The notes below the pieces were generated by a model. The model made no database searches, had not been told where the DNA came from, and saw only the letters and a list, made by a program, of their open reading frames with translations. Below, piece by piece: positions 1 to 21,969 of a stretch of DNA of 64,000 nucleotides. Source of the DNA: Candidatus Woesebacteria bacterium (GTDB taxonomy: Bacteria > Patescibacteriota > Microgenomatia > UBA1400 > UBA12108); assembly GCA_018060845.1 (NCBI GenBank), contig JAGOVG010000001.1, positions 152,740-216,739 on the forward strand, written 5' to 3'. Every line of letters begins with the position of its first letter. The stretch's first letter is position 1. Made by a program: the position numbers and the translations under genes.

Positions 1-197
1 TTCTTCGGTTAGATTGGTAAACTCGGCAAACGGGTTGCTCACCGAATCTTCGCTATTTAGGTCGAGGGTGGTAGTAGTAGATGGCTGGCGTGAAGAGATG
101 ATAAGGATAATAAGCAGAATGGCAGCTGAGATGCTAACTGCAGTTAGGAGGAATTTGTTGGCAAAAAGCCTTTGGGTTAGTTGATTGATCATAATGT
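1..197 (-). CDS. Hypothetical membrane-anchored protein, N-terminal fragment; the gene continues beyond the window
   Basis: Minus-strand reading from an ATG at about 197 gives MINQLTQRLFANKFLLTAVSISAAILLIILII..., an N-terminal TM helix. It is open to the window edge. Confidence 0.3.
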
Positions 198-264
198 TTT
201 TATCCCACTTCGCCATAAGGCTTCGTTAGGGATGAGGTACTATTATATTTCTTAATATCGAACC

Positions 265-3135
265 TCAAAACCCTGGTAATTTGAGTATATCAGCAGCAAT
301 GAGGCGAAGGAGTGAGACAGAGAAGATGACTAGAAGTAGTCCGGCTATTCCGGCTGAGAAAAGGTCGCGACCGGACTGTATGGCTTTTGCATCACCAGAG
401 CTTGTCATGAGACGGAAGACGCCAGTTAGCATAACAGAGAGTGAGATGGCACCTGAGATACCTATAAGGAACTGCAGGAGCGCAGTAACAAATGGCTGGT
501 AAGTGTAGGGGAGACAGCCAAGCGCTGTTGCAAGACTACCCTCACCACAGGTGATGGGTCGGAAAGCAGCTAGACCAGTGCCTGGAGTCCCGGTGGTAGG
601 AGTAGTGGGGGAGCTAGCGGGATTTGTGCTCGGCGAGGCTGCTGGAGATCTAGTTTTGAGATATTCATGAACAACAAGCGCTGTTGGGAACACGCCCGGT
701 CGTTGACCGTAGGGTTTTGGAGGGATACAGGGTGTAAAGTCACCACAGTACAACAAATACATACTTTGATGCGTCCCGTCGACCATGTTCATGGCATATG
801 GATCATCTTCGCCCTGGAACTTTCTAGGACAGCCACCATAAGGGATGGTCCCACCAGGAAAGCCGATTTGGCAGTTGCTGTTACCACCACCATTAAAGTT
901 GCTGATTGCGGTTATTAGCTCTGGAGTTGTATCTATTGTGTGACGCAAGAGCCCGTTGGCCGCTGATCTAACTGTCGCCTCGAAGCCGCCCTGTTCACCG
1001 ACTGGGCCACCGTTGGCCGCAGAGCATTTTTCGGGGTTTCCTGTCGCAGTAAAGCAGGTTGTTGCTTCTTCAAAATGATGACCTGCTAGGACTTCGCAGG
1101 GGACACCCGTTTCTTCGGATATTTTGGCGTAGGCCTCTTCGAGTTTAGGATTAAGGATCCCACCCTCAAACATAGCTGAGTTTTGAATAATACTAGTTAC
1201 ATTACTTGGCGCAGTCTTCCAATCAGAGTCAGCGAGGATAGCTTCGAATTTGTCGGGTAGACACTGGCCAGTGGTACTGGTCCCAGGAGCACCCACAGTC
1301 CTGTCGCAGCCTATTCTAGTGCCGAGCGCATACTCTTCGACAGAGGTATCTAATTGACTAGAGAACATTGGATCTGCACAGGTATAGTACCCAAAGCGAC
1401 GTCTAGCGTCGGCAGGGTTCATGGATTTGCCAGCATATAAGAGCTCTGCTTCATCATCGACCGTACTACTTAAGTCTTCGTTAAAATCCTGGACACTTTC
1501 GAGATTTGCTAGGGTGTCCCTAGTATCGTAGTAACCTTTTTGGAGTTCGCTGATTGACTGACCCATCGCTTCTGGAACAGTGTAGAGGTGATATTTAACC
1601 TGCTCAACTTCGTCGATTTTGTCACCGCCACCCCAGCCAGTAAATGCTAATTGGAGGAACCATGAAAGATTGAGTTCGGGGTAGGCTCCGCCCTTATCTT
1701 TGGTAAGAGTGGGTTGGAGCTTGTAGTTAGGACACTCGCCGTTTGGCCCTAGCTTCATGTCATCTTCGAGGTAGTCGATCCACTGAGTAAAATATTTCCA
1801 GCTAGACCAAGGGATATATTTGAGACAACCATCCTTGAGTTCGCCGTAGAGCTTTTCGTGGATAAAACTGGGAATCCCAAACTCACTACTAACACTGGCA
1901 AAGCGAGCGAGAGGATTGACCGCCACAATGTTTTTGTAAATCCGCATAGCGTCACTAAGTGGATAGGTCATAAAGAGCTGGTCTAGGGCTGCATTAAATG
2001 ATTGTGAGATAGAGGTGTCGTAGAATAAGCCGCGCCGTATACCTACCAACATTTCATCTGGTACCCAACACTTGTCGGGATTTTTGGGACAACATACATT
2101 CCAGACACAAATAGTAGGCCTGATGTACCCCTGACGAAAAGAGGGGGGATAGAGTGGGGCAGACATTAGGTTAATAAACCATTCGTCTGGCTGCACTTTA
2201 CCGGCTTCTTTGTTGATCACATTACAGATCGCTTGTTGTGTTTCGCCCAGTCCTTCGAGGAGTGCGTAGTTGCCAGGATTAATATACATATCATCTAGCA
2301 TCTCAAGCATTCCAAAAGTTGGGGCAGCCACCGCGTCTGGGAGCTCATCGGAGATCTCGAGGAGGGTCTTGGTACCTACAGTTGGAGTGTCGGGATCTAG
2401 GTCGTGATCAATGCCGACTTGGTAGCCCCAGTCTACCCATCCTAGTGGCCACTCGCCGGTCTGTGCGAGAGTTGATTTGGTTTGCTTGGCGCGTTTGACG
2501 ACTATCACTTTGCGCAGAGCGACATCACAAAAACTAGAGTTGAGATATTGCGATCCCCAAGAGATATCATTACTTGTTCCTACATTAGTAAACGCAAGTG
2601 CTTCGCTTTGCAGTTTTGGGTAGGTTGGCTTTTCAGCTGAGAAATCGGTGCCTTTGACAGTACGGCTAATACTGGGTCTTTTTTTGTAACTACATTTACC
2701 CTTGGTGACCCCACCCAGATCAGGGTTGGCTTTGGCAGTACAGCTATCGTTTGGATCAGATGTCGCATCTTTGACATATTCGCCACTGTCGCGGTTGCAG
2801 AGACCTACTGTTCCACCCTCACACCCATCGACTAATTCTTCTGTTTGGTTGTCGACTGCACAGACATAATCGCGCTCATCACCACCTGGACAGAGCATGA
2901 GATTTTCGTATTCGCGACTACGATCACGGTTTTCGTATATTTTTAAAAAAGGAGCTCGGATGTATTTGTAGAGCGGAAAAAAAATCTCAAAGTGATACTC
3001 TTCATCAGGATTGCCCTCGACTGAAAAGGGGGCAAACGGTTCTGTTGATTCGGCACGAGCTGGAGCAATGGATAATGAGGAGTGAGCAAGGAGTAGAGCT
3101 AAGAGCGAAGTTGTGATAAGGCGCAGCAATCTCAT
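265..3135 (-). CDS. Large secreted Cys-rich protein (956 aa) with a C-terminal VirB2/TrbC-like pilin domain; putative adhesin-pilin fusion
   Basis: N-terminal signal peptide (MRLLRLITTSLLALLLAHSSLSIAPARA). About 850 aa of Cys-rich extracellular sequence. A Pro/Thr linker (PSTNPASSPTTPTTGTPGTG). The C-terminal 110 aa (ITCGEGSLATALGCLPY...TSSGDAKAIQSGRDLFSAGIAGLLLVIFSV) match the two-TM pilin core of the downstream paralogs. Confidence 0.7.
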   Translation of the reverse strand: MRLLRLITTSLLALLLAHSSLSIAPARAESTEPFAPFSVEGNPDEEYHFEIFFPLYKYIRAPFLKIYENRDRSREYENLMLCPGGDERDYVCAVDNQTEELVDGCEGGTVGLCNRDSGEYVKDATSDPNDSCTAKANPDLGGVTKGKCSYKKRPSISRTVKGTDFSAEKPTYPKLQSEALAFTNVGTSNDISWGSQYLNSSFCDVALRKVIVVKRAKQTKSTLAQTGEWPLGWVDWGYQVGIDHDLDPDTPTVGTKTLLEISDELPDAVAAPTFGMLEMLDDMYINPGNYALLEGLGETQQAICNVINKEAGKVQPDEWFINLMSAPLYPPSFRQGYIRPTICVWNVCCPKNPDKCWVPDEMLVGIRRGLFYDTSISQSFNAALDQLFMTYPLSDAMRIYKNIVAVNPLARFASVSSEFGIPSFIHEKLYGELKDGCLKYIPWSSWKYFTQWIDYLEDDMKLGPNGECPNYKLQPTLTKDKGGAYPELNLSWFLQLAFTGWGGGDKIDEVEQVKYHLYTVPEAMGQSISELQKGYYDTRDTLANLESVQDFNEDLSSTVDDEAELLYAGKSMNPADARRRFGYYTCADPMFSSQLDTSVEEYALGTRIGCDRTVGAPGTSTTGQCLPDKFEAILADSDWKTAPSNVTSIIQNSAMFEGGILNPKLEEAYAKISEETGVPCEVLAGHHFEEATTCFTATGNPEKCSAANGGPVGEQGGFEATVRSAANGLLRHTIDTTPELITAISNFNGGGNSNCQIGFPGGTIPYGGCPRKFQGEDDPYAMNMVDGTHQSMYLLYCGDFTPCIPPKPYGQRPGVFPTALVVHEYLKTRSPAASPSTNPASSPTTPTTGTPGTGLAAFRPITCGEGSLATALGCLPYTYQPFVTALLQFLIGISGAISLSVMLTGVFRLMTSSGDAKAIQSGRDLFSAGIAGLLLVIFSVSLLRLIAADILKLPGF

Positions 3136-3137
3136 GA

Positions 3138-3419
3138 TCAGAAGCCAAAGTTGAATTGAGTAACTGGTGCACCAGTGAGATTTTCGATTAAGAGTAAGAT
3201 CAGCCAGGAGACAATGGCAAGGACCAGGCCACCAACCGCATAGCCAACAGTTTGTTTGCCACCCTGCAACCCCTTAGGGTCTCCACCACTGGTTAAGATC
3301 TTAAAACCACCAACTAAGATCATGATAAAAGCTACCATGCCAATTAGTGGGATCATGGCGGATAGAACGTTGCCAAAGTAATCTGGTAGTTGGTCGAGGC
3401 GTGCGGCGTCTGAGTCCAT
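3138..3419 (-). CDS. Pilin-like small membrane protein (VirB2/TrbC-like, two TM)
   Basis: 93 aa. TM1 (LIGMVAFIMILVGGFKILTSGGDPKG), polar loop, TM2 (VGGLVLAIVSWLILLLIENL). It sits 2 nt upstream of the 956-aa gene, so the two are probably an operon. Confidence 0.6.
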   Translation of the reverse strand: MDSDAARLDQLPDYFGNVLSAMIPLIGMVAFIMILVGGFKILTSGGDPKGLQGGKQTVGYAVGGLVLAIVSWLILLLIENLTGAPVTQFNFGF

Positions 3420-3439
3420 GTCTGTAATTATAGTACAAA

Positions 3440-3470
3440 AACCCCGCTTACGCGGGGTTTATTGCAATGT
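3440..3470 (-). terminator. Rho-independent terminator (the hairpin is bidirectional) after the pilin gene 3486..3833
   Basis: Plus strand reads aaaaaCCCCGCttacGCGGGGtttatt. On the minus strand the stem CCCCGC/GCGGGG is followed by TTTTT. Confidence 0.6.
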
Positions 3471-3485
3471 TTGTAACAAAAAGTC

Positions 3486-3833
3486 TTAGTAAGCAGTTGG
3501 AGGCGTAATGTTGTCGTTGAGGATGCTGATACCAAAGAAGTATTGGATGATCAACATGACCGCCCAAGCAGAGGCTACGACTGCGAGACCAACTAGAGCT
3601 GCAGTGATGCGATCACGAGCTTCTTGGGTTTTGCCTTTGTCACCACCTGATGTAATCCATTGGATGCCACCCCAGATTAGATACATGAAGACGAGGAGAG
3701 CAGAAACGAGTAGTGCTCCCTGGACTGCACCCTTGATGAGAGTACCAATATTGGTGATTGCGACGTTGTCTGGCTTGCCAATTGAGAGGTCTGGAGCTGC
3801 TGGAGCTGCTAAGACTTTGGAAATTTCGAACAT
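3486..3833 (-). CDS. Pilin-like protein (VirB2/TrbC-like), paralog 1 of the array
   Basis: Conserved core YLIWGGIQWITSGGDKGKTQEARDRITAALVGLAVVASAWAV. Start moved to MFEISK because a strong RBS, AAAGGAGAAcatATG, sits just upstream. It has its own terminator. Confidence 0.7.
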   Translation of the reverse strand: MFEISKVLAAPAAPDLSIGKPDNVAITNIGTLIKGAVQGALLVSALLVFMYLIWGGIQWITSGGDKGKTQEARDRITAALVGLAVVASAWAVMLIIQYFFGISILNDNITPPTAY

Positions 3834-3891
3834 ATGTTCTCCTTTTATTACTTTATGATCTAAGTGTATCAATTATAGCAGGATTAGCAAG

Positions 3892-4266
3892 TTATTTGGT
3901 AATGCCAATCCCAAAGAAGTAGTCGACTAGTAAGTAGACGGCCCAAGCCGAGGCTACGATAGCTAGGCCAACTATAGCCTGGGTAATTTTGTTTCTAGCT
4001 TCTTCCAACTTTCCTTTGTCACCACCGGCCGTGATCCAGTTGATACCTCCGTAGACTAGGTACATAAAAGTGGCGAGCCCAGCTACTAGAATGACGGCCG
4101 AGAAGCTGCGGGAGACAAAAGTGCCAAGATCTTCGTTGATTGCCACGCGAGATTTGACTTGGTCATCCACATTGATGGCAAAGCTACCACCGGCGGCGAG
4201 TGCTACGGGCGTACTAGTTAAAAGTAGAAAGGTAAAAGTTGAAAGTCGGGTGAGTATTTTTTTCAT
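3892..4266 (-). CDS. Pilin-like protein (VirB2/TrbC-like), paralog 2
   Basis: Signal-peptide-like N-terminus, then YLVYGGINWITAGGDKGKLEEARNKITQAIVGLAIVASAWAV. Confidence 0.7.
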   Translation of the reverse strand: MKKILTRLSTFTFLLLTSTPVALAAGGSFAINVDDQVKSRVAINEDLGTFVSRSFSAVILVAGLATFMYLVYGGINWITAGGDKGKLEEARNKITQAIVGLAIVASAWAVYLLVDYFFGIGITK

Positions 4267-4304
4267 ATGTGGTCATTCCCGCCAATGCGGGACTTCGCTT
4301 ACGC

Positions 4305-4661
4305 TCAGCCTGCAGTGGGCCAGATAATGTTTAAGAGATCGACTCCGAGCGCTGATTCGATAAATTTGATTATGACGTAGCTTGCCGCGAGAACTGCAAG
4401 TCCAACTAAACCCTGAGTAATTTTGGCTCGACTCTCGTCAAGTTTTCCTTTGTCACCACCAGCCATAATCCAGTTGAGTCCACCCCAGAGGAAGTAAAGT
4501 AGAAAGGCGAGACCGCCTACGATAATGATGGTTTGCCAGAGCGTGGCCATGGTAATAGCAAATTGTTGAGGAGCACTATCAGGAGAGTCGCCCCCTGGCA
4601 CGGCTGTATTAGTTATCGCTGCGTGTACTTGAGTGACAAGTTGAAAGTTTGTAAAGTTCAT
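4305..4661 (-). CDS. Pilin-like protein, paralog 3
   Basis: FLWGGLNWIMAGGDKGKLDESRAKITQGLVGLAVLAASYVI. Variable N- and C-terminal tails. Confidence 0.7.
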   Translation of the reverse strand: MNFTNFQLVTQVHAAITNTAVPGGDSPDSAPQQFAITMATLWQTIIIVGGLAFLLYFLWGGLNWIMAGGDKGKLDESRAKITQGLVGLAVLAASYVIIKFIESALGVDLLNIIWPTAG

Positions 4662-4665
4662 AAAA

Positions 4666-5028
4666 TTAATTGAAGGTGATCCCCTGAATAATACTACCTG
4701 GTTCGAGGATGTTTAGACCTAGGGCAGAGCCCACGATCCAGACAATGGAGTAGGAGAGGACGATAATGATCAAACCTATGGCGCCACCCGTCATCATGCC
4801 CTTGGCTTTGTCGATCTTACCTTTGTCACCACCGGCCGTGATCCAGTTGAGGCCGCCAAGGAGGAAATAGAGGACAAAAGCAATGCCAGCAACTACGGTT
4901 AGCACAACTAGAGTATTGCTGATTAGTTTTTCAAAGGCACTAGTACTGCCCTCGATGCCACTACCAGGTTGGTATCCACCAGGAGTAGTAATCTGACTAA
5001 AGCTAGTGTCTGCCAAGATTTTTGACAT
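4666..5028 (-). CDS. Pilin-like protein, paralog 4
   Basis: FLLGGLNWITAGGDKGKIDKAKGMMTGGAIGLIIIVLSYSIV. Confidence 0.7.
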   Translation of the reverse strand: MSKILADTSFSQITTPGGYQPGSGIEGSTSAFEKLISNTLVVLTVVAGIAFVLYFLLGGLNWITAGGDKGKIDKAKGMMTGGAIGLIIIVLSYSIVWIVGSALGLNILEPGSIIQGITFN

Positions 5029-5031
5029 AAA

Positions 5032-5367
5032 TTAAAAACTCCCTGGTCCAGTAATGGTAGGAGATAAGATAGCTCCTGCATCGCCAAATAGGACAAAGGA
5101 GACAATGCCGGTAATCGCTGCTGCGCCTACCATGATGATTAAACCGAGGAGAGACATGTTGATTGAGTACATAGCAGCCTGGATCTTTTTCTCGTCCCCT
5201 CCGGCCGTGACGTAAGTAAAGCCAGAGATCATGAGATTAAAGAATGCGTACAATCCCGCTGCAACAAAAATAACGGTCACAATATTAGTGATAAAACTTG
5301 GTAACCCAGTGTTGACATCACCGTAGTTGGTTACTGGATTGTCGATGTTACCAAAGACGCTTGCCAT
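5032..5367 (-). CDS. Pilin-like protein, paralog 5 (diverged)
   Basis: Same two-TM topology. The motif is degenerated to TYVTAGGDEKKIQAAMYSINMSLLGLIIMVG. Confidence 0.6.
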   Translation of the reverse strand: MASVFGNIDNPVTNYGDVNTGLPSFITNIVTVIFVAAGLYAFFNLMISGFTYVTAGGDEKKIQAAMYSINMSLLGLIIMVGAAAITGIVSFVLFGDAGAILSPTITGPGSF

Positions 5368-5371
5368 AGAT

Positions 5372-5719
5372 TTATAGAATCTCTAGTCCGGTGACGATCT
5401 GAATAATCTGAATTATCCAGTACGAACCGAAGACTACTAATAGGCCCATTATAGCAAAAGTAATAGTTTTTTTGCCCTCTTCCATCTTGTGACTATCGCT
5501 GGCGCCACTTATCACATTAAATCCGCCGAGTACAAACATAAAAAAGAGCACTAGCCCTGCTGCGACATAGACGTTCGGGAGGATGGCGTTGATTAAGTCG
5601 CTCGCACTACCGTAGGTCGAGTCTGCGCTACTACCCTGGAAAATAAGCTTGTCACCTAAGTTAAATCCTGCCATGCCATTTATTATACCCTTTGGAGTAG
5701 AATATGGCACATGGAACAA
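5372..5719 (-). CDS. Pilin-like protein, paralog 6 (diverged)
   Basis: Two TM around the motif ISGASDSHKMEEGKKTITFAIMGLLVVFGSYWII. The real start may be the internal MAGFNLG at 5674, because 5711-5719 overlaps the divergent sigma gene. Confidence 0.55.
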   Translation of the reverse strand: MFHVPYSTPKGIINGMAGFNLGDKLIFQGSSADSTYGSASDLINAILPNVYVAAGLVLFFMFVLGGFNVISGASDSHKMEEGKKTITFAIMGLLVVFGSYWIIQIIQIVTGLEIL

Positions 5720-6250
5720 GTGATAAAGGAGATATTAAAAGGAAAAAAGGGTGCAGCAACTGTATTTTACCGAGAGTACTCACCTAAACTAAGGCGATTT
5801 TTGGTGGCTAAACTCCCGAGCGAAGCAGATGCGGAGGAGCTACTCCAAGACATATTTTTGTCTGTGTTTGACTCTCTGCCGATCTACCGGGGGGAGTGTA
5901 GCGTTATGTCATGGATTTACTCGATAGCACGACATGAGGTGGCCGACTTTTATCGCAAGCGCTACGTTCGAGAGCTGGTAGAGAAGACCAATCCTTTGTT
6001 TGAAGAGTTGATGGAGACGGTTGAGACCCCAGAAAAGGTTTTGGATAAAACTAAAAAGCGTGCTCAGTTTTTTGCGGTGTACAAAGGTCTTAATCAATCA
6101 TACCAAGATATACTGTCATACCGCTACGAATTATCTTTGTCAGTAAAAGAGATAGCGGCAAAAATGAAACTCACATTTAAGGCAACAGAGTCATTACTTT
6201 ATCGGGCGAGGACAGCTTTTGCCCTAGCTTACGAAACATATGCAGAGTGA
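5711..6250 (+). CDS. ECF-type RNA polymerase sigma factor (sigma-70 regions 2 and 4)
   Basis: Region 2-like DIFLSVFDSLPIYRGECSVMSWIYSIARHEVADFYRKR. Region 4-like LSYRYELSLSVKEIAAKMKLTFKATESLLYRARTAF. Divergent from the pilin array. Confidence 0.8.
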   Translation: MEQVIKEILKGKKGAATVFYREYSPKLRRFLVAKLPSEADAEELLQDIFLSVFDSLPIYRGECSVMSWIYSIARHEVADFYRKRYVRELVEKTNPLFEELMETVETPEKVLDKTKKRAQFFAVYKGLNQSYQDILSYRYELSLSVKEIAAKMKLTFKATESLLYRARTAFALAYETYAE

Positions 6251-6470
6251 AGCCAAATTTTTGCAAGTAATAGAAAAGAAAGCTGTGGAGGAGAGAAAAA
6301 TCCTAGATACCGAATTGATGCCAAGCTGGGCTCGGGGGGTAGGAGAGTGGTTGGTGGTGAATCCGTGGCGGGTGATGGTACCTGTTTCGGGTATTTCGTA
6401 TATATTGTTTCGGACAGCGCTTGGCACTAATTTTCGGGAGTTGATATTGGGATTGTTTGGAGGATATTAA
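6240..6470 (+). CDS. Small single-TM protein, possible anti-sigma factor
   Basis: Its start overlaps the sigma stop (ATGcagagTGA). One TM (VMVPVSGISYILF). Role inferred from position only. Confidence 0.3.
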   Translation: MQSEAKFLQVIEKKAVEERKILDTELMPSWARGVGEWLVVNPWRVMVPVSGISYILFRTALGTNFRELILGLFGGY

Positions 6471-7791: not shown

Positions 7792-8460
7792 ATGCAGAAT
7801 ATGGACTACAGCGTATATCAGGGGAGGCAGGTAGTACTCGTGGATGAGAATGACAATGAGTTGGGGGTTGAGGATATTCTAGTAGCTCATCAGGGAGTAG
7901 GGAAGAAGCATAGAGCTTTGTCGGTTATTTTGTATAGACGAGTTGGTGACAGAACAGAAATCCTCATGCAGAAGCGGTCGCAGGCGAAGCCAGTTTTTAA
8001 AGGTCTATGGAGCAATACCTGCTGTACTAATTTGCGTCCTGGTGATACTTATATCGAGCGTGCAGTGTCGAGGCTAAAAGAAGAGATGGGGATAGAGATA
8101 AAACCAGAAGACTTGAGAATTCTTTATCGCTTTAGCTACGAAGCACCTGATCTAACCAATCCAGTCCATTCGGCCCATTCGACTAGCTCAGGGCAGGCAA
8201 GCTCAGGATCTACGAGCTGGTGTGAGAACGAAGTGGATACAGTAATAGTAGGGATGTGGGATCCTTCGGTTCATTCGACTAGCTCAGGACAGGCAAGCTC
8301 AGGACAGGCTGGAATGAAGTTAAACCCAGATGAAGCTGAGGATGCAAAATGGATGGAGTATGGAGAGATGAAAGAGGATATGGATAAGAACCCAGATATT
8401 TATTCACCCTGGCATAAATTAATTATTAACGATCCACGATTTGTGGAGGAGGTAGTATGA
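7792..8460 (+). CDS. idi: Isopentenyl-diphosphate delta-isomerase, type 1 (Nudix fold), with an in-frame low-complexity insertion
   Basis: ILVAHQGVGKKHRALSVILYRR, LMQKRSQAKPVFKGLWSNTCC and CENEV match the type 1 family. The STSSGQASSG segment is duplicated. Confidence 0.75.
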   Translation: MQNMDYSVYQGRQVVLVDENDNELGVEDILVAHQGVGKKHRALSVILYRRVGDRTEILMQKRSQAKPVFKGLWSNTCCTNLRPGDTYIERAVSRLKEEMGIEIKPEDLRILYRFSYEAPDLTNPVHSAHSTSSGQASSGSTSWCENEVDTVIVGMWDPSVHSTSSGQASSGQAGMKLNPDEAEDAKWMEYGEMKEDMDKNPDIYSPWHKLIINDPRFVEEVV

Positions 8461-8678: not shown

Positions 8679-9125
8679 ATGACACAACGATCAGAAGGTG
8701 TTGTCGGAATTGTTAGAACTAGAAAAGGCTATCTATTGTTGCCTAATGGTAAAGAAAACGATGGAAAAACCGAGCGTCATTTAGCTCATCGAACTTTTTC
8801 TCCTGTGTCTGGACTAGAAAATTTAGGAGGTAAAGTAGAGCCTGGTCAGACTCGAATAGATGCATTAAAAGCAGAATCTTGGCAGGAAGGGTGGATATCG
8901 CTATATGACCATCAAGTGAATGACGCAGGGTTTGGGGTGATAGTTGAACAGGGAGGGCGAGGAACTTTCGACGTGACTGTGTATTTTCTTGAACTTTACT
9001 GGTGGCAAATAGCAATATTAAAAATATTTAAGAGAGCTAAAGAGATTGATCCCCTCAATCTTGACTCTACAGAGATTCGTATGAGAGATTTAGTTATTCT
9101 ACAGTTAGCAGAGGACAAAATATGA
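8679..9125 (+). CDS. Hypothetical protein; Nudix similarity is weak and unproven
   Basis: GGKVEPGQTRIDALKAESWQEGW loosely resembles a Nudix box but does not fit the consensus spacing. Confidence 0.35.
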   Translation: MTQRSEGVVGIVRTRKGYLLLPNGKENDGKTERHLAHRTFSPVSGLENLGGKVEPGQTRIDALKAESWQEGWISLYDHQVNDAGFGVIVEQGGRGTFDVTVYFLELYWWQIAILKIFKRAKEIDPLNLDSTEIRMRDLVILQLAEDKI

Positions 9126-9916
9126 AGCAAATGTTAATGGTAAAACTAGGTGGTGGGGTAATAACAGACAAGAATGTGCACTATGGACTTAGAGAAGATG
9201 TGTTAACGAGATTAGCTGGGGAGATCGCTCGAGGATACGCGAAGCTTGGAGAGACTAAACTGATTATTGGCAATGGTGCGGGTAGTTTTGCACATTTTTC
9301 GGCTCATAAATACAGGACTACTGAAGGTTTTGTAGACGAGAGCTCTCGGGTCGGGATGGGGTGGGTGAGGCATGATGCAGTTAAACTTAATCAAATCGTG
9401 TTTGAACAATTATTGTTAGCTAACGTCCCTGTTTTCTCCTATTCACCCTCATCTTTTATGAGCGTGTCCAATCGGACTACTAAGCAAATTTTTACTGAGT
9501 CGATTGAGGACGGACTCAAAAATGGAATTGTTCCCTTAGTCTATGGAGATGTAGTGGTGGACGCAGCGCGTGGGTGTGATGTTTACTCGACCGAGCGAGT
9601 GTTTGATGAGCTAGCCAAGTATTTTGCTAAAGATTACCAGGTTAAAGTAATCCATGTTAGTGCGGAGGAGGGGGTATATAAAACTGGCCAGGCAAGCGTG
9701 TTTGAAGAGATCACAAGAGAAAACTTTGAGGAAGTAAAACAACATCTAGGAGGATCAAAAGGCGTGGATGTTTCTGGTGGAATGTTACACAAAGTAGAGG
9801 AGTGTCTGGAGTTAACTAAATTGGGTATTAATAGTGTAATAGTTAGTGGGATGGTGGAGGGAAGGGTCGAGGAGGTGATTAGTGGAAAGAAAACAGTTGG
9901 AACAGTTATATGCTAG
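9122..9916 (+). CDS. Isopentenyl phosphate kinase (amino-acid kinase fold)
   Basis: MVKLGGGVITDK N-terminus, about 264 aa. Sits between idi and uppS. Confidence 0.7.
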   Translation: MKQMLMVKLGGGVITDKNVHYGLREDVLTRLAGEIARGYAKLGETKLIIGNGAGSFAHFSAHKYRTTEGFVDESSRVGMGWVRHDAVKLNQIVFEQLLLANVPVFSYSPSSFMSVSNRTTKQIFTESIEDGLKNGIVPLVYGDVVVDAARGCDVYSTERVFDELAKYFAKDYQVKVIHVSAEEGVYKTGQASVFEEITRENFEEVKQHLGGSKGVDVSGGMLHKVEECLELTKLGINSVIVSGMVEGRVEEVISGKKTVGTVIC

Positions 9917-10575
9917 ATACAAAAACGATACCAACACATATTGCGGTGATAATGGATGGAAACAGAAGGTGGGCTAAGGCAAAGGGACTACCTGCTATTG
10001 CCGGTCACGCATATGCAGTCGAGAAGACGGTCGAAGCACTGATAGAGCGAGCAGGAGAGACGGGAGTTAAACATCTTACGTTATGGGCATTTAGTACAGA
10101 GAATTGGGGGAGAGCAGAAGATGAGGTGACGGGACTGATGAATCTGTTTAGAAAAGCGATAGAGACCAAGGCGGGCCGGTTTATCGCAAAAGGGGCAAGA
10201 CTTAGATTGATCGGAGACATGAGCCGATTTAGCGAAGATATCCAGGTAGGAATGAAGCGAGTAATAGCTGAGAGCGAGAAAAATGAAAAGATCACAGTAA
10301 CATTTGCACTAAACTATGGCGGGAGAGATGAGATTAAGAGGGCGGTGCAAAAGGGTGGAGTGGATTTTGAAAACCAACTAGATACTGTAGGGATGCCTGA
10401 CCCTGACCTGATTATTAGAACAGGTGGAGATTACCGTCTATCTGGATTTTTGATGTGGCAGGCGGCGTATAGTGAACTGTATTTTACAGAGACCCTGTTC
10501 CCTGATTTTACGCCAGAGAAGTTTGATGAGGCGGTAGAGGAGTATCAGAGTAGACAGAGACGGTTTGGGAAGTAG
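9910..10575 (+). CDS. uppS: Undecaprenyl-diphosphate synthase (cis-prenyltransferase)
   Basis: HIAVIMDGNRRWAKAKGL and LWAFSTENWGR match the family. Confidence 0.85.
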   Translation: MLDTKTIPTHIAVIMDGNRRWAKAKGLPAIAGHAYAVEKTVEALIERAGETGVKHLTLWAFSTENWGRAEDEVTGLMNLFRKAIETKAGRFIAKGARLRLIGDMSRFSEDIQVGMKRVIAESEKNEKITVTFALNYGGRDEIKRAVQKGGVDFENQLDTVGMPDPDLIIRTGGDYRLSGFLMWQAAYSELYFTETLFPDFTPEKFDEAVEEYQSRQRRFGK

Positions 10576-10716: not shown

Positions 10717-11028
10717 TTACCCGACGATGTCGATCTTGAAGATAATCTGGAGGAGCTGGGCGATCCAGAAGGCTAGAAAGATAACGGCAAACCCAAATAG
10801 CGCACTAGTAATAGTTTTTTTACCTTTTTCTTGAGCTTCTTTGTCTGCCGCACCAGCGAGCATAGTAAAGCCACCTGAGACGAGCATGCCAAAGAGGATA
10901 ATCCCTGCGAGTGTTAGTAGGGTGGGGAGGATGGAGCTAATGATACTACCCACGTTACTAGTATCTACCTGGCCACCACCGAGGCCGATGGCATTCTCGT
11001 AGGCGTCGTAGTCTGCAAAATCTGCCAT
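10717..11028 (-). CDS. Pilin-like protein (VirB2/TrbC-like), second locus
   Basis: Two TM around GGFTMLAGAADKEAQEKGKKTITSALFGFAVIFLAFWI. Confidence 0.6.
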   Translation of the reverse strand: MADFADYDAYENAIGLGGGQVDTSNVGSIISSILPTLLTLAGIILFGMLVSGGFTMLAGAADKEAQEKGKKTITSALFGFAVIFLAFWIAQLLQIIFKIDIVG

Positions 11029-11036: not shown

Positions 11037-11453
11037 TTAATTAAATCCTGGTAATTGAATGATATCACCTGCAATGATGCGCAGTAGTGTTACAGAGAAG
11101 ATGATAAACAGAAGTCCGGTTACGGCACTGGTAAAGAGCTCTTTACCTTTTTTGACTGCTTCAGCATTGTCGCCACCAGTCATGATCTGGACTGTTGCAA
11201 TGAGCATAATAACCAAAGAGATGGCTCCTGCCGTACCAGCAAGAAACGTAAGAAGGGAGACAGTGAAACCTTTAGTATCTACGCTTAAGCATCCTAGCGC
11301 CGTGTCGATTGCTGTATCACCGCAGCTGCCATTGGGATCGATCGCCTTGACTTGATTGGTCGAAAGTAGAAAGTAGAGGGTAGAGAGGAAGGGAGCAACT
11401 AGTCTTTGTGATAGGATGGATATATGTTTTCTGTCTGGAAAAAGCTTTTTCAT
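11037..11453 (-). CDS. Secreted Cys-motif protein with a C-terminal pilin-like domain; short homolog of the 956-aa protein's C-terminus
   Basis: NGSCGDTAIDTALGCLSV...ISLVIMLIATVQIMTGGDNAEAVKKGKELFTSAVTGLLFIIFSVTLLRIIAGDIIQLPGFN. Compare ITCGEGSLATALGCLPY...LKLPGF in the 956-aa protein. Confidence 0.6.
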   Translation of the reverse strand: MKKLFPDRKHISILSQRLVAPFLSTLYFLLSTNQVKAIDPNGSCGDTAIDTALGCLSVDTKGFTVSLLTFLAGTAGAISLVIMLIATVQIMTGGDNAEAVKKGKELFTSAVTGLLFIIFSVTLLRIIAGDIIQLPGFN

Positions 11454-13124
11454 AGCATAGTAATTGTACTGCTTCTTATCCTGACAATTGTATCACACCA
11501 GACAGCGCACGCTGAGACTCTGGAGGAGATAGAGAAGCAGCTAGCGGACCTTTCTAATCAGCTCCAGCTATCACAAGCAGCAACCACTCCACTCGAAGCC
11601 GAGGTCTCCAAGCTGCTTAAGCAGATTGGGACTATCCAGAGTCAGATCAAAGACTACGAGAGTAAAATCAAGGATTTAAGTCTAGATATTGATGAGAGGG
11701 AAGTAAAAATTAAGACCCAATATGTAGTATTGGGAGCAAAGGTTAGGGACTACTACAAAAAATCCAGGTTTTATTCCCCTCTACTGACACTACTATCCTC
11801 ACAAAGTGCGGGCGAGCTAACACGCGAACTTACGTATGCTGAGGCGACAGCGGATGAAGATAAAGAGATGATTGTCTCGATTACCAAAGAGATTATTGCT
11901 CTAGAGGATGATAAGACAAAGCTTGAATCTGACAAAGTCAGATTAGCTTCCTTACAAAAGAAGGTTGATGGTCAAAAAGCATTTTTTGAGAAAGAAATCG
12001 CGGGTGCTAAGAAGTGGCAACAAGAGCTCTCTGGCAAAATAGCGACTTTGACAGCCAAACAACAATCAATCCTTTCGGAGAAATCGGGGACATTTCAGAC
12101 TACGGTTGGAGACGTGCCTCTCGCAGATGACAAAGCATCAAGACCAGACTACAACCCAGGATTTTCACCAGCGTTTGCCGCATTTTCATTTGGAGCGCCG
12201 CACTTTAAAGGCATGAGTCAATACGGGGCATATGGCCGGGCCAAACAAGGACAGAGTTACGAGACTATATTGAAAGCTTATTATGGCAACGGTATCGAGA
12301 TTAGAGACCATAACCCAGACGCGCAGATAGTGGTCGAGGGATATGGGAGCTTTAGTTTGGAAGAATATGTAAAAAGAATCTATGAGATGCCGGGTTCATG
12401 GGGAGATGAGGGTGGGATGGAGGCACTTAAAGCGCAGGCGATAGCTGCACGCAGCTACGCACTAGCACGCGGTGGGACTATATGTGCTACTGAGGCATGT
12501 CAGGTATTTAAACCGAGTCCGAAAGGTGGGAGGTGGGAAGAAGCCGTAAATGCGACTAGAGGTAAGGTGGTATATGCAAACGGCAGTCCTTTTTCGACTT
12601 GGTATGCATCTACATCAGGAGGATACCAACTCAGCTACTCAGCTAACGGGCACTCAACTCCAGGATTTTGGGATACGCCATCAGGACAAGCTGGCTGGAC
12701 TGGCCAAGCATATGAAAAAGTGGCTGGCTCACCCTGGTTCTACAAAGCTTGGTATAAAACAAGATCAGGTGATTCGTGCGATAGATCACATCCATGGCTC
12801 AACTCCGAAGAAATGGCCGACATCTTAAACTCTTGGGTAGTTTTATTTAATGGAGGAGGGGATGCGGGGCGAGTGACCCCAGAGTCATCTTGTTGGGGAG
12901 GTAGCCCGTATAACCGAGCGGAACTCAGAGACATAGGTGGGTATAGTAGTGTCAGTGGAGTTAGCGTGAGCTACGGCAATAATGGTGTAACCGCGAACAT
13001 TACTTTTCAGACCAACAAAGGCAGCACTACTATCGCGGCAGCAGACTTTAAGAAGGCCTTTAATTTGCGAGCACCTGGTCGAATATCGATAAAGTCAAAC
13101 CTGTTTAATATTGAGAAAAAGTAG
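11424..13124 (+). CDS. SpoIID/LytB-domain protein with signal peptide and N-terminal coiled coil
   Basis: Signal peptide ending AHA. Coiled-coil-like 40-230. GMSQYGAYGRAKQGQSYETILKAYY and AQAIAARSYA match the SpoIID family. Confidence 0.7.
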   Translation: MFSVWKKLFHSIVIVLLLILTIVSHQTAHAETLEEIEKQLADLSNQLQLSQAATTPLEAEVSKLLKQIGTIQSQIKDYESKIKDLSLDIDEREVKIKTQYVVLGAKVRDYYKKSRFYSPLLTLLSSQSAGELTRELTYAEATADEDKEMIVSITKEIIALEDDKTKLESDKVRLASLQKKVDGQKAFFEKEIAGAKKWQQELSGKIATLTAKQQSILSEKSGTFQTTVGDVPLADDKASRPDYNPGFSPAFAAFSFGAPHFKGMSQYGAYGRAKQGQSYETILKAYYGNGIEIRDHNPDAQIVVEGYGSFSLEEYVKRIYEMPGSWGDEGGMEALKAQAIAARSYALARGGTICATEACQVFKPSPKGGRWEEAVNATRGKVVYANGSPFSTWYASTSGGYQLSYSANGHSTPGFWDTPSGQAGWTGQAYEKVAGSPWFYKAWYKTRSGDSCDRSHPWLNSEEMADILNSWVVLFNGGGDAGRVTPESSCWGGSPYNRAELRDIGGYSSVSGVSVSYGNNGVTANITFQTNKGSTTIAAADFKKAFNLRAPGRISIKSNLFNIEKK

Positions 13125-19736: not shown

Positions 19737-20033
19737 TTATAGATAGTGGGTATTATCCTCTGATTCCGCTGGGATCATGATGTTGAGAAATATTAGATCA
19801 GAGTTTGAGTCATTAACACCCTCGTGTACCGTACCCCTTTTGCGAAAGTAAAACTTGCCTTGTTTGTGAGTTTTGGTATTTCCGCGAAACACATACTCAA
19901 TCTCAGTCGCATCATGATAATGAGGCTTTTCGACCCCACCTGGAACCATAAAGTAGATGTAAATTGAAATAGGCTTAATATCTAGGATTTTTATAGATTT
20001 GCGGTAGGGAGTAGTAGTCATGTTTGGCTGCAC
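19737..20033 (-). CDS. Cupin-domain protein
   Basis: HYHDATEIEYVFRGN is a cupin motif 1-like sequence. Confidence 0.5.
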   Translation of the reverse strand: MQPNMTTTPYRKSIKILDIKPISIYIYFMVPGGVEKPHYHDATEIEYVFRGNTKTHKQGKFYFRKRGTVHEGVNDSNSDLIFLNIMIPAESEDNTHYL

Positions 20034-20051
20034 GATATCTAATGTAGGAAC

Positions 20052-20546
20052 CTATTTTACTGGTTTCATGAGCTCAATCCCGTACTCGTCAAAACCAAAT
20101 TTTTTGTAAAGATTTAGGGCTGGACTGTTTCTATAAAGGACTCCAAGCCCCACGTAAGTAAATCCAAGTTCTCTGGCTCGAGCTTCGGCAGTTTTAAGTA
20201 ATTCTGTAGCAATGCCTTGATTACGAAAACGACTATCGACATAAATAGAATTGATTCGGAGATATTTTTTGTAGGTGTTTTCGATTTCGTCTTCAGAACT
20301 AAACTCAATAAATCCAGATGGGACCCCTTCTGTAAAAGCAATATAGTATTCATAACTACTATTTTCCTGACTAGTTTTTACGTATTCTTGAAACATTAGC
20401 TCAGCCTGTGCTTCCGTGATATCTCGATTAGATTCGAATTCGTGTTCACCCATCTGCAAACCAAGATAAAAAAATTTGATGATATCGAAAAGTTCGGGAG
20501 TGGGGTAGGTGATTTTCTTAATAGTTGTTGCCATAAGGAGAAACAT
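20052..20546 (-). CDS. GNAT family N-acetyltransferase
   Basis: RFRNQGIATELLKTAEARARELGFTYVGLGV...LNLYKKFGF matches the acetyl-CoA binding motif. Confidence 0.75.
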   Translation of the reverse strand: MFLLMATTIKKITYPTPELFDIIKFFYLGLQMGEHEFESNRDITEAQAELMFQEYVKTSQENSSYEYYIAFTEGVPSGFIEFSSEDEIENTYKKYLRINSIYVDSRFRNQGIATELLKTAEARARELGFTYVGLGVLYRNSPALNLYKKFGFDEYGIELMKPVK

Positions 20547-20552
20547 ACTGGA

Positions 20553-20636
20553 TTTATAAGTTACCCTGGACTTTTTATAGTTTATTTATAAACTGCGGGG
20601 TACTATATACGATGTTATAACCTATCTTTCTAATGA
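20553..20636. repeat. About 85-bp leader repeat, copy 1, upstream of the GNAT gene
   Basis: ttataagttaccctggactttttatagtttatttataaactgcggggtactatatacgatgttataacctatc. About 85% identical to 21201-21280. Confidence 0.6.
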
Positions 20637-20646
20637 TGAAATTAGT

Positions 20647-21132
20647 TTAGCGAGATTGTAATACTCTATCGAGAATTGCGTGATAGTTAAACATATCATG
20701 GGAGCTACTTCTCTTGTCTATTTCTGCTTGAGTAATCATTTCTGTCGCCATCATTAGCCAAAGTGCATCAGGAATTTTGCTTTTTTCTAGTGCTTGCATT
20801 GCATTCCAGATGTCTACTTCAACAAAAGCTGTGGGTTCTATTGGTAGGTTAGTCGTGGTGAATTCTTGGAGTTTAAAATCTGGGTACCCGAGTTGTCTAG
20901 GGATAAATGTTTTAACTTTCTTTATAAACGATTTACTCACACCAGTTTCATATTTCGCAAAACTAACAGCTGCTTGAGCTGCTATTGTCCAAAAATCTCC
21001 GTCTACATATAGGAATTTTTCTGGGTTATCGTATTGTGAGTGGTCGGTAATTGGTTGATAAAATATAGAGAGACGAAAGTCTCTTCCTTGAGCGATAGGA
21101 TAGCGATGATTACAATCTACTGTATTTGTCAT
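20647..21132 (-). CDS. Hypothetical protein (161 aa), cassette-like gene
   Basis: ORF with no recognisable motif. Preceded by repeat copy 2. Confidence 0.4.
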   Translation of the reverse strand: MTNTVDCNHRYPIAQGRDFRLSIFYQPITDHSQYDNPEKFLYVDGDFWTIAAQAAVSFAKYETGVSKSFIKKVKTFIPRQLGYPDFKLQEFTTTNLPIEPTAFVEVDIWNAMQALEKSKIPDALWLMMATEMITQAEIDKRSSSHDMFNYHAILDRVLQSR

Positions 21133-21200
21133 ATTGTTCCTCCTTATGGCAGTGTGTATATTGTAGCAGGGTAGGCAAGAGAGGTTTTTTATAAATAGGT

Positions 21201-21280
21201 TATAAGTTACTCTGGTGTATTTATAGTTGATTTATAAACTGCGGAGAACTATATCCGATGTTGGAACCTATTTTTTGAAA
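21201..21280. repeat. About 85-bp leader repeat, copy 2
   Basis: ttataagttactctggtgtatttatagttgatttataaactgcggagaactatatccgatgttggaacctatttttt. Confidence 0.6.
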
Positions 21281-21804: not shown

Positions 21805-21805
21805 A

Positions 21806-21928: not shown

Positions 21929-21969
21929 TTTGATATTCTCTGAATGATTGAAATTATAGCATTGAACTG

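What the first reader, a model, noticed from the sequence alone, without database searches (positions are those of the whole stretch)
265..3135. 956-aa Cys-rich extracellular protein whose C-terminus is itself a pilin domain (adhesin-pilin fusion)
The protein has a cleavable signal peptide and about 850 residues with many Cys. A Pro/Thr-rich linker follows, and then a C-terminal about 110 aa carrying the same two-TM pilin core as the downstream paralogs (..MLTGVFRLMTSSGDAKAIQSGRDLFSAGIAGLLLVIFSV..LPGF). A large globular domain covalently fused to a polymerising pilin module would be displayed on the filament, as a tip or decorating subunit. That is not how canonical VirB2/VirB5 systems are built, and it is a strong candidate for a host-attachment factor.
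Basis: partly seen in the sequence, partly recalled or inferred. Interest (0 to 1): 0.8.

Follow-up and report, generated by a model that had tools for sequence, protein, structure and literature searches.

The report
Pilin-anchored cell-wall-cutting protein of T4SS
A 956-residue secreted protein of an uncultivated ultrasmall (Patescibacteria) bacterium really does end in a conjugative-type pilin module, but the large part it carries includes a lysozyme-like cell-wall-cutting domain, so it looks like a wall-cutting enzyme mounted on the type IV secretion pilin machinery and not a simple adhesin.

Summary
ORF 265-3135 (minus strand) encodes a 956-aa protein with a signal peptide, 26 mostly conserved Cys, a Pro/Thr/Ser linker and a C-terminal two-helix hairpin. 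The hairpin is homologous to Pfam PF18895 T4SS_pilin (hhalign 97.5%, E 9e-12 against the window's own pilins; 48% identity to the 138-aa pilin at 11037-11453). The fusion is not an artefact: about 60 full-length homologues share it, as do 11 GTDB species representatives.

Best reading (about 0.5): a peptidoglycan-cleaving head, with a lineage-specific N-terminal module, is carried into the T4SS pilus pathway by its own pilin module. Polymerisation, catalysis and adhesion are all untested. I rate it a new variant of a known kind, interest about 0.6.

The parts
265..3135 (-). Whole ORF, 956 aa plus stop codon (265-267). It starts 2 nt after the stop of the last array pilin, which suggests translational coupling.
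   Evidence: Identical to NCBI KBD69_00790.
3052..3135 (-). Residues 1-28: Sec-type signal peptide MRLLRLITTSLLALLLAHSSLSIAPARA, with an A-x-A cleavage motif.
   Evidence: Read directly from the sequence. No signal-peptide predictor was available.
1294..3051 (-). Residues 29-614: lineage-specific N-terminal ectodomain module. It contains a beta-rich subdomain (about 66-160) with six conserved Cys, followed by mixed alpha/beta structure. Fold and function are unknown.
640..1293 (-). Residues 615-832: lysozyme-like (lytic transglycosylase / goose-type lysozyme fold) domain. It belongs to a widespread family with no Pfam model.
1066..1068 (-). Codon of Glu690 (motif H-F-E-E690-A): candidate catalytic glutamate of the lysozyme-like domain.
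   Evidence: Invariant in 25 diverse domain copies and in the 11-sequence ectodomain alignment; at least 90% conserved in 64 full-length homologues. It aligns by eye with the 'WSVET' Glu of the SLT-like replacement domain in P0326. Codon checked.
559..639 (-). Residues 833-859: Pro/Thr/Ser/Ala-rich flexible linker.
   Evidence: pLDDT below 50 for residues 830-859. Composition. Variable in sequence and length among homologues.
268..558 (-). Residues 860-956: 'class-B' T4SS_pilin (VirB2-like) module. It has a Cys863-x10-Cys874 loop, TM helix 1, a short charged loop (SSGDAKAIQSGRD), TM helix 2 and the C-terminal end ..KLPGF.
3138..5719 (-). Array of seven 'class-A' T4SS_pilin genes (3138-3419, 3486-3872, 3892-4266, 4305-4661, 4666-5028, 5032-5367, 5372-5719) directly upstream, on the same strand.
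   Evidence: PF18895 hits, five of the seven above the Pfam cut-off. NCBIfam Mbov_0395 pilin-like model below its cut-off. A 7-gene array followed by a large protein is conserved in 24 species representatives.
11037..11453 (-). Stand-alone 138-aa class-B pilin, the closest paralogue of the fused module and its likely duplication source or co-polymerisation partner.
   Evidence: 48% identity, E 2e-31. Weak PF18895 hit. This subfamily is abundant as 100-165 aa stand-alone proteins. The NJ tree separates fused modules from stand-alone ones of the same genomes.
10717..11028 (-). 103-aa class-A pilin paired with the stand-alone class-B pilin.
   Evidence: PF18895 E 1.3e-9. The pairing is conserved in L003, L009, L010, L015 and L026-L036.
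1..216 (-). Start of the next gene of the operon (186-aa single-TM protein, cut by the window edge). Beyond it, off the window, lie the remaining T4SS genes.
   Evidence: The gene order continues in L001/L005 as: 6-TM 523-aa protein, 1328-aa protein (opposite strand), 948-aa protein with a sub-threshold CHAP hit, 201-aa protein, PrgI/VirB3-like protein, split VirB4, dnaN, dnaA.

Best explanation
The gene encodes a Sec-exported, disulfide-stabilised component of the origin-proximal type IV secretion system of a Woesebacteria-like (Microgenomatia, Patescibacteria) bacterium. It has five parts:
1. A signal peptide.
2. A lineage-specific module of about 590 aa with unknown fold.
3. A lysozyme/lytic-transglycosylase-like domain of about 215 aa with an invariant Glu690.
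4. A flexible Pro/Thr/Ser linker of about 27 residues.
5. A C-terminal VirB2-like pilin hairpin of a distinct subclass (Cys-x10-Cys ... LPGF).

Proposed mechanism:
- After export, the hairpin inserts in the membrane with pilin topology (both ends outside, charged loop inside), leaving the ectodomain on the cell surface. The domains are shown; the topology is inferred.
- Because the hairpin is a close paralogue of a stand-alone pilin encoded nearby, it enters the same T4SS-driven pilin pathway as the 7+2 small pilins. It would be incorporated sparsely or terminally into the pilus-like structure. This step is inferred and untested.
- The filament or channel end would then carry a peptidoglycan-cleaving head that opens the cell wall, either the bacterium's own or, for an epibiont, that of the host cell. 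The fold and the invariant Glu are shown; activity and target are inferred.
- The variable N-terminal module would supply target binding or specificity. This is inferred only from its lineage-specific replacement.

Functionally it would combine the role of VirB1 (wall lysis for T4SS/pilus assembly) with that of a tip or minor pilin. The flagellar FlgJ offers an analogy from textbook knowledge, since it couples a rod-tip module to a muramidase.
For: - The fusion is real and conserved: about 60 clusters and 11 species representatives.
- The C-terminus is homologous to PF18895 pilins.
- It forms a two-helix hairpin preceded by a disordered linker.
- Residues 615-832 have a lysozyme-like fold with an invariant Glu.
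- In P0326 the same position is occupied by a domain with canonical SLT motifs (WSVET...GATQIMQ), still followed by the class-B pilin.
- An independent reverse-order fusion exists: P0426 has a PF18895 pilin at the N-terminus and the same LT-like domain at the C-terminus.
- The gene starts 2 nt after the last of seven pilin genes.
- '7-pilin array followed by a large protein ending in this LT-like domain' is conserved across 24 species representatives, including Collierbacteria.
- The locus contains a candidate CHAP-domain hydrolase (sub-threshold hit), PrgI/VirB3 and VirB4, next to dnaA.
- The published survey found pilin arrays but few VirB1 homologues in Patescibacteria and no adhesins (PMC12102498). 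In Saccharibacteria the pilin array and the lysozyme/peptidase genes of the T4SS locus are essential (PMC10633639 and PMC12102498).
- Fused genomes keep the stand-alone class-B pilin, which points to duplication and leaves a potential co-polymerisation partner.
Against: - No PF18895 protein has been shown to polymerise, and there is no sequence link to solved conjugative pilins.
- Three species have the orthologous ectodomain without any pilin module, and ten more have the LT-like protein unfused. Covalent attachment is therefore optional, and the hairpin could be a mere anchor.
- An ectodomain of roughly 90 kDa on every subunit is sterically incompatible with a homopolymer, so only sparse or terminal incorporation is possible.
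- The window's own pilin module fails the Pfam threshold.
- The LT-like domain has no sequence match to SLT or lysozyme families.
- I could not inspect the structural superposition to confirm that E690 occupies the catalytic position. Its place in the helix differs between the two models.
- The locus already has another candidate wall hydrolase, the 948-aa protein with a CHAP hit at E 7e-4, below the Pfam cut-off.
Confidence: 0.5

Rival explanations
1. Membrane-anchored VirB1/PrgK-type wall hydrolase. The pilin-derived hairpin serves only as a C-terminal membrane anchor and never leaves the membrane. The enzyme locally opens the bacterium's own peptidoglycan so that the T4SS channel or pilus can assemble.
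For: - Lysozyme-like fold with an invariant Glu.
- T4SS locus context.
- From general knowledge and PMC12102498, T4SS hydrolases of monoderm bacteria are membrane-anchored multidomain proteins.
- Unfused orthologues exist, so polymerisation is not required for the ectodomain's core function.
- VirB1 homologues are otherwise rarely detected in Patescibacteria.
Against: - A single TM helix would suffice as an anchor. Instead a complete pilin module, with the subclass-specific Cys loop and the LPGF end, is strongly conserved (67% mean column identity).
- The module remains a close paralogue of a stand-alone pilin.
- A second, reverse-order pilin plus LT fusion arose independently.
- The roughly 590-aa variable N-module and the long linker are unexplained by a housekeeping wall-remodelling role.
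Confidence: 0.3
2. One reading: an adhesin-pilin. The ectodomain is a host-attachment factor displayed on the pilus. The lysozyme-like domain acts as a non-catalytic glycan or peptidoglycan-binding module.
For: - Large, Cys-rich, exported ectodomain on a flexible linker.
- The N-module is lineage-specific and replaced by unrelated sequence in sister lineages, as expected for host-specificity determinants.
- No PrgB-like adhesins have been found in Patescibacteria T4SS loci (PMC12102498).
Against: - No adhesin, lectin or Ig-like fold or family was detected.
- The Glu of the lysozyme-like domain is invariant across very divergent copies that co-occur with other wall hydrolase domains (M23, C39-like, GH5). 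That argues for catalysis over mere binding.
Confidence: 0.12
3. Artefact: a frameshift, a lost stop codon or a chimeric assembly joined a secreted protein gene to a neighbouring pilin gene.
For: Orthologues without the pilin module exist (P0079, P0080; L019-L021).
Against: - The same continuous ORF is found in independent assemblies from NCBI, JGI, ENA and Logan at 38-100% identity.
- It occurs in 11 different species representatives.
- The linker and pilin module are in frame everywhere.
- In the unfused genomes the next gene overlaps the stop codon, so no pilin remnant is present.
Confidence: 0.01

Closest known systems
VirB2/TrbC-like conjugative pilins, specifically Pfam PF18895 T4SS_pilin and the published VirB2-like pilin arrays of Patescibacteria (PMC12102498; Wang et al. 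2023, PMC10633639)
   Same: - The C-terminal 97 residues are a signal-peptide-dependent two-TM helical hairpin with a short charged loop.
- They are homologous at profile level to PF18895 pilins.
- The gene lies in a T4SS locus next to a multi-gene pilin array near dnaA, exactly the context described for Microgenomatia.
   Different: - It carries an N-terminal extension of about 830 residues; known members are about 90-170 aa.
- It belongs to a distinct subclass with a Cys-x10-Cys loop and a ..LPGF C-terminal end.
- The window's copy is below the Pfam threshold.
- Polymerisation is not shown for any member.
T4SS-associated peptidoglycan hydrolases: VirB1 (Agrobacterium), PrgK (pCF10), TraG (pIP501), CwlT (ICEBs1), Tn916-like CTn1-Orf17
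   Same: - Lysozyme-like (SLT/GEWL) fold with a conserved Glu.
- Encoded inside a T4SS gene cluster.
- Multidomain and membrane-tethered, like the monoderm examples.
   Different: - No detectable sequence similarity to Pfam SLT or any other model.
- Anchored by a C-terminal pilin hairpin; from general knowledge, the monoderm T4SS hydrolases use an N-terminal TM helix.
- Preceded by a large unknown module.
- A separate protein with a sub-threshold CHAP hit is also present in the locus.
FlagelIar FlgJ, and the T3SS pair EtgA-EscI
   Same: - Working analogy: a wall-cleaving glycosidase is physically coupled (fused in FlgJ, bound in EtgA-EscI) to a subunit at the growing end of an envelope-spanning filament, so lysis is confined to where the structure must pass.
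   Different: - The filament systems are unrelated.
- The carrier here is a VirB2-type pilin module, not a rod-cap or rod protein.
- The analogy is functional only and untested.
VirB5-type pilus-tip proteins, and the large-headed minor pilins of type IV pili / T2SS (GspK, TcpB, CofB)
   Same: Conceptually the same solution: a bulky functional domain joined to, or associated with, a pilin-like assembly module and placed at the filament tip.
   Different: - No sequence or fold similarity to VirB5.
- Type IV pilins are a different pilin superfamily with one N-terminal helix.
- A tip location for this protein is purely inferred.

Membership tests
Pfam PF18895 T4SS_pilin (VirB2-like pilins) | Direct match of the protein to the Pfam model above its gathering score (26.6 bits) | tested here: not met
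   The full protein has no Pfam family at E <= 0.1. The isolated 100-aa C-terminus has no family at E <= 0.01 (member 1).
Pfam PF18895 T4SS_pilin (VirB2-like pilins) | Homology to bona fide members at profile level | tested here: met
   hhalign of the C-terminal alignment A3 against the window's eight PF18895-positive pilins (A4): probability 97.5%, E 8.8e-12, 73 columns. 26 of 30 orthologous C-termini hit PF18895 at E <= 0.01, best 8.6e-9. Several full-length homologues carry a precomputed PF18895 hit. 48% identity to the 138-aa pilin, which itself hits PF18895 at E 1e-3.
Pfam PF18895 T4SS_pilin (VirB2-like pilins) | Two hydrophobic helices forming a hairpin with a short polar or charged loop, behind a signal peptide | tested here: met
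   Helices 879-911 and 916-950. Hydropathy peaks at 881-909 and 922-954. Loop SSGDAKAIQSGRD. N-terminal signal peptide read from the sequence.
Pfam PF18895 T4SS_pilin (VirB2-like pilins) | Genomic association with T4SS core genes (VirB4, VirB3/PrgI) | tested here: met
   In the same contig (L001) and in the 78%-identical orthologue's contig (L005): PrgI-like, AAA_10/P-loop_TraG VirB4-like, dnaN and dnaA lie within about 12 kb downstream.
Pfam PF18895 T4SS_pilin (VirB2-like pilins) | Assembly into an extracellular pilus | not testable with these tools
Lysozyme-like superfamily: lytic transglycosylases / goose-type lysozymes (functional class of VirB1) | Lysozyme-like alpha+beta fold | tested here: met
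Lysozyme-like superfamily: lytic transglycosylases / goose-type lysozymes (functional class of VirB1) | Conserved catalytic glutamate at the active-site helix | tested here: inconclusive
   Glu690 is invariant in 25 highly diverged copies and matches by eye the Glu of the 'WSVET' motif in P0326. The tools gave no residue-level superposition. The residue lies at a helix end in one model (H680-690) and within a continuous helix in the other (H66-84 of the domain model).
Lysozyme-like superfamily: lytic transglycosylases / goose-type lysozymes (functional class of VirB1) | Sequence match to a curated SLT, lysozyme or glucosaminidase family | tested here: not met
   No Pfam family matched any of 25 domain copies beyond six unrelated chance hits, each in a single member (E 0.011-0.19). 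The profile search against PDB sequences found nothing at E <= 10. NCBIfam found nothing relevant.
Lysozyme-like superfamily: lytic transglycosylases / goose-type lysozymes (functional class of VirB1) | Peptidoglycan-cleaving activity | not testable with these tools
   Needs a biochemical assay.
VirB5-type pilus-tip adhesins | Sequence or fold similarity to VirB5/TraC/CagL | tested here: not met
Sortase-anchored (LPXTG) Gram-positive surface adhesins such as PrgB | LPXTG motif followed by a hydrophobic segment and a positively charged tail | tested here: not met
   The protein ends ..KLPGF with nothing after it in most homologues, or with 1-3 residues in some. The hydrophobic helices come before the motif, not after it.

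The most novel reading that the evidence does not exclude
The fused protein is the terminal 'drill-head' subunit of a pilus built by a monoderm-type T4SS. Its pilin module nucleates or caps the filament made of the small pilins. Its lytic-transglycosylase-like domain cuts through the peptidoglycan of the host bacterium that the epibiont sits on. Its variable N-module recognises that host's surface. This would be the first conjugative-type pilin that carries an enzyme, and a direct molecular handle on how Patescibacteria breach their hosts. The same LT-like family, fused or unfused, would be the overlooked VirB1/VirB5-equivalent of Microgenomatia T4SSs.
Probability: 0.25. Interest if true: 0.85.

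Novelty: new variant of a known kind. Interest (0 to 1): 0.6.

Why it matters
- Patescibacteria T4SSs are essential for the epibiotic lifestyle in the one species tested. They are unusual among monoderm systems in having VirB2-like pilin arrays, yet what the pilins build and what the system does is unknown (PMC10633639, PMC12857230, PMC11665869).
- The 2025 survey found few VirB1 homologues, scarce VirB6 in Microgenomatia and no adhesins (PMC12102498).
- This locus shows a conserved large exported protein directly after the pilin array. Its C-terminal globular domain is a previously unrecognised lysozyme-like family. In one clade that protein is covalently joined to a pilin module.
- That physically links wall cleavage to the pilin pathway and gives a candidate for the missing wall-opening or host-contact component.
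- It also provides a large antigenic handle to ask whether these T4SSs make a filament and where it ends.
- The unannotated LT-like domain family (more than 100 representative clusters, often with M23, C39-like or GH5 partners) is itself worth a family definition.

Tried and rejected
- Pfam and NCBIfam on the whole protein and on 11 ectodomain orthologues gave nothing except a chance antiporter hit over the TM hairpin.
- Profile searches of PDB sequences with the full-length alignment, the LT-domain alignment and the pilin alignments gave nothing or only chance GPCR/TM hits.
- Homology between the N-terminal module and the N-parts of the Collierbacteria-type proteins in the same slot is rejected (hhalign probability 0.15%).
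- LPGF as a sortase signal is rejected, because it lies at the extreme C-terminus after the TM helices.
- Fusion as a frameshift or assembly artefact is rejected.
- A check whether the unfused 778-aa orthologue is followed by a split-off pilin gene was negative. The next gene overlaps its stop codon and is the orthologue of the 186-aa membrane protein.
- The promoter and terminator scan of 1-6400 gave counts no higher than chance. One promoter-like site lies upstream of the array, and there is no convincing terminator between the array and the gene.
- An attempt to scan all 64 homologues against Pfam exceeded the size limit.
Full report
**1. What is in the window**

ORF 265..3135 on the minus strand is a continuous 956-codon frame. 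It is identical to NCBI 'hypothetical protein KBD69_00790 [Candidatus Woesebacteria bacterium]' (P0001) on a 226-kb contig of GCA_020049755.1.

Its ATG lies 2 nt after the stop codon of a 93-aa gene (3138-3419). That gene is the last of seven same-strand small genes (3138-5719), all of which hit Pfam PF18895 T4SS_pilin, five of them above the cut-off. Two more small pilin genes lie at 10717-11028 and 11037-11453.

The protein begins with MRLLRLITTSLLALLLAHSSLSIAPARA|E, a Sec-type signal peptide by inspection. It contains 26 Cys, of which 22 are conserved in at least 57 of 64 homologues. It has only two further hydrophobic segments, at 881-909 and 922-954.

**2. The C-terminal module is a pilin module**

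- Residues 862-956 are 48% identical (E 2e-31) to the 138-aa ORF at 11037-11453.
- Identity to the seven array pilins is only 15-29%.
- An alignment of 30 orthologous C-termini (A3) matches an alignment of the window's eight clear PF18895 pilins (A4) with hhalign probability 97.5%, E 8.8e-12.
- 26 of those 30 C-termini hit PF18895 on their own, best E 8.6e-9. The window's copy does not.
- AlphaFold2 with 64 homologues (pLDDT 84.4) gives a helical hairpin at 879-911 and 916-950, behind a disordered Pro/Thr/Ser linker at 830-859.

The module defines a subclass that I call class B. It has an invariant Cys-x10-Cys loop before helix 1 and a ..(K/R)LPGF end. A profile search shows this subclass is common as stand-alone 100-165 aa proteins (371 hits).

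**3. The fusion is not an artefact**

Eighty homologues were found. About 60 of them are 918-967 aa long, cover about 100% of the query at 38-82% identity and end in ..LPGF. They come from NCBI, JGI, ENA and Logan assemblies.

Among GTDB species representatives the picture is as follows:
- 11 carry the fused form.
- Two are cut by contig ends.
- Three (L019, L020, L021) carry the orthologous ectodomain with no pilin module. In those genomes the next gene overlaps the stop codon, so nothing has been split off.

Fused genomes still keep the stand-alone class-B pilin. In a neighbour-joining tree the fused modules group apart from the stand-alone ones of the same genomes. This is consistent with a duplication followed by one ancient fusion. 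The tree is coarse.

**4. The ectodomain**

No Pfam, NCBIfam or PDB sequence match exists for the ectodomain. An exhaustive profile search with the ectodomain alone (A5) found 387 proteins and split it into two modules.

*N-terminal module.* Profile positions 1-570 (residues about 29-614) occur only in this family and a few relatives.

*C-terminal globular module.* Positions about 570-778 (residues about 615-832) form a mobile domain:
- It sits at the C-terminus of more than 100 representative proteins of 200-2400 aa.
- In some of them it accompanies Peptidase_M23, GH5 or Peptidase_C39_2 domains.
- Across 25 diverged copies one Glu (E690 here, motif HxxE) is invariant, together with N748, G751, N752, Y780, H789, M792 and D799.

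*Fold of the C-terminal module.*
- The result was MltF 10.3, SltB1 9.5 (20% identity), g-type lysozyme 9.4, Slt70 7.2, MltE 6.9, FlgJ 6.8, MltC/MltD 6.8, EtgA 6.4 and Tn916-like CTn1-Orf17 5.6. About thirty top hits are all lysozyme-superfamily glycosidases.
- Residues 615-832 are therefore a lysozyme/lytic-transglycosylase-like domain that no current sequence model recognises.

*Two relatives reinforce the link.*
- P0326 has the same N-module and class-B pilin, but a middle domain with canonical SLT motifs (WSVET...GATQIMQ).
- P0426 is a 336-aa protein with a PF18895 pilin at the N-terminus, a linker and the same LT-like domain at the C-terminus. It is a solitary gene, seen once.

*N-terminal module, continued.* It remains unidentified. 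It has a beta-rich, three-disulfide subdomain (about 66-160) followed by mixed structure.

**5. Context**

Downstream of the gene, off the window but on the same contig (L001) and in a 78%-identical relative (L005), the order is:
1. A 186-aa single-TM protein.
2. A 523-aa protein with about 6 TM segments, a possible VirB6 analogue by inference.
3. A 1328-aa cytoplasmic protein on the other strand.
4. A 948-aa membrane protein with a C-terminal CHAP hit (E 7e-4, below the Pfam cut-off).
5. A 201-aa protein.
6. A PrgI/VirB3-like protein.
7. A VirB4-like ATPase (AAA_10/P-loop_TraG), apparently split.
8. dnaN and dnaA.

This is the origin-proximal, monoderm-type T4SS described for Patescibacteria, including the multi-gene VirB2-like arrays that are especially common in Microgenomatia (PMC12102498).

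The arrangement 'seven pilin genes, then a large exported protein ending in the LT-like domain' is conserved well beyond the fused clade. Ten further species representatives (Collierbacteria and others) have it, with an 860-1085 aa protein. The N-part of that protein is not detectably related to the one here (hhalign probability 0.15%). So the catalytic-type domain is constant, the N-terminal part is lineage-specific, and the pilin tail is clade-specific.

**6. Mechanism**

*Shown:*
- The domain architecture.
- Homology of the tail to pilins.
- The lysozyme-like fold with an invariant Glu.
- Conserved placement after the pilin array, inside a T4SS locus.

*Inferred:*
- Pilin topology, with the ectodomain outside.
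- Entry of the hairpin into the pilin assembly pathway, and sparse or terminal incorporation into a pilus-like structure.
- Peptidoglycan cleavage.
- A binding or specificity role for the N-module.

I favour (about 0.5) a pilus-borne wall-cleaving head, functionally VirB1 plus a minor or tip pilin, analogous in logic to FlgJ. The main rival (about 0.3) is that the hairpin is only a membrane anchor for a VirB1/PrgK-like hydrolase. The existence of unfused orthologues keeps that rival alive. The strong conservation of a complete pilin module and the independent reverse-order fusion argue against it. The pure adhesin reading (about 0.12) has no positive evidence beyond the variability of the N-module.

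**7. Comparison with what is known, and novelty**

Pilin arrays in Patescibacteria T4SSs are published. So are their essentiality in Southlakia and the essentiality there of lysozyme and peptidase genes in the locus (PMC10633639, PMC12102498, PMC12857230).

I found no description of any of the following in the searchable literature:
- A VirB2-type pilin fused to a large ectodomain.
- This LT-like domain family.
- Its fixed position after the arrays.

The 2025 survey states that most VirB2-bearing genomes lack VirB1 and that no adhesins were detected. This protein family is a candidate for both gaps in Microgenomatia. I classify it as a new variant of a known kind. The parts (a VirB2-like pilin and a T4SS-associated lytic-transglycosylase-like enzyme) belong to known kinds, while their covalent combination and the domain family are new.

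**8. Limits**

- There is no experimental evidence for polymerisation, catalysis or adhesion.
- The organism is uncultivated.
- Catalytic-site superposition could not be inspected.
- The signal peptide was judged by eye.
- The N-module was not searched against AlphaFold-scale libraries.

Noticed in passing
window 11037-11453 (-), overlapping 11424-13124 (+): The 138-aa class-B pilin ORF overlaps the 5' end of the divergent SpoIID-like gene by 30 nt. The public gene call (L001 1929-2099, 56 aa) truncates it and loses the signal peptide, the Cys loop and the first TM helix. The stand-alone class-B pilin is probably mis-annotated in this genome.
   Followed up: partly
window 5711-6250 (+), next to the pilin array at 3138-5719 (-): An ECF-type sigma-70 factor gene (Sigma70_r2/r4_2) is divergent from the first pilin gene. 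The same pairing is conserved in L003/L004. A promoter-like site lies at 5710->5682 on the minus strand, though the count of such sites is not above chance. This may be a dedicated regulator of the pilin/T4SS operon.
   Followed up: partly
L037 4393-5403 (protein P0426): A solitary 336-aa protein has the reverse architecture: a PF18895 pilin hairpin at the N-terminus (28.9 bits, above the cut-off), a Pro-rich linker, then the same lysozyme-like domain at the C-terminus. It is not in a T4SS locus and was seen on one contig only.
   Followed up: partly
protein P0326 (902 aa): It has the same N-terminal module and class-B pilin tail, but the lysozyme-like domain is replaced by a different domain with canonical SLT motifs (WSVET ... 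GATQIMQ). Pfam does not detect it.
   Followed up: no
L008 1007-1747: One 246-aa ORF contains a class-B pilin module (aa 54-144) followed by a class-A pilin module (aa 176-245). This is either a tandem pilin-pilin fusion or a lost stop codon in that assembly.
   Followed up: no
C-termini of pilins: window 268-282 and homologues: Class-B modules end almost invariably in (K/R)LPGF, sometimes followed by 1-3 extra residues (GG, GR, K, TR, QGP). Several class-A pilins also end in PG..F or FGF. This could be a processing or recognition motif, by loose analogy with the C-terminal processing of TrbC/VirB2, but nothing tests that.
   Followed up: no
L001 19214-22060 (off window, same contig): A 948-aa membrane protein has a C-terminal CHAP hit (E 7e-4, 20.5 bits, below the Pfam cut-off of 26). 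It is a second candidate wall hydrolase in the same T4SS cluster. A 523-aa protein with about 6 TM segments (L001 13554-15125) could be the VirB6 analogue reported as scarce in Microgenomatia.
   Followed up: partly
window 49246-54867 (-) and 59460-63380 (+): Two class-A penicillin-binding proteins (transglycosylase plus transpeptidase) flank a GH18 glycosyl hydrolase gene. Further on, two ribonucleotide-reductase large-subunit paralogues lie in tandem.
   Followed up: no
window 7792-8460 (+): The NUDIX-family ORF carries an internal duplicated Ser/Gly-rich insert (..HSTSSGQASSG.. twice). Neighbouring genes (isopentenyl phosphate kinase-like AA_kinase at 9122-9916, prenyltransferase at 9910-10575) suggest an isoprenoid cluster between the two pilin loci.
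   Followed up: no
window 20001-22000: G+C drops to 0.374 against about 0.45 elsewhere. This was not examined.
   Followed up: no
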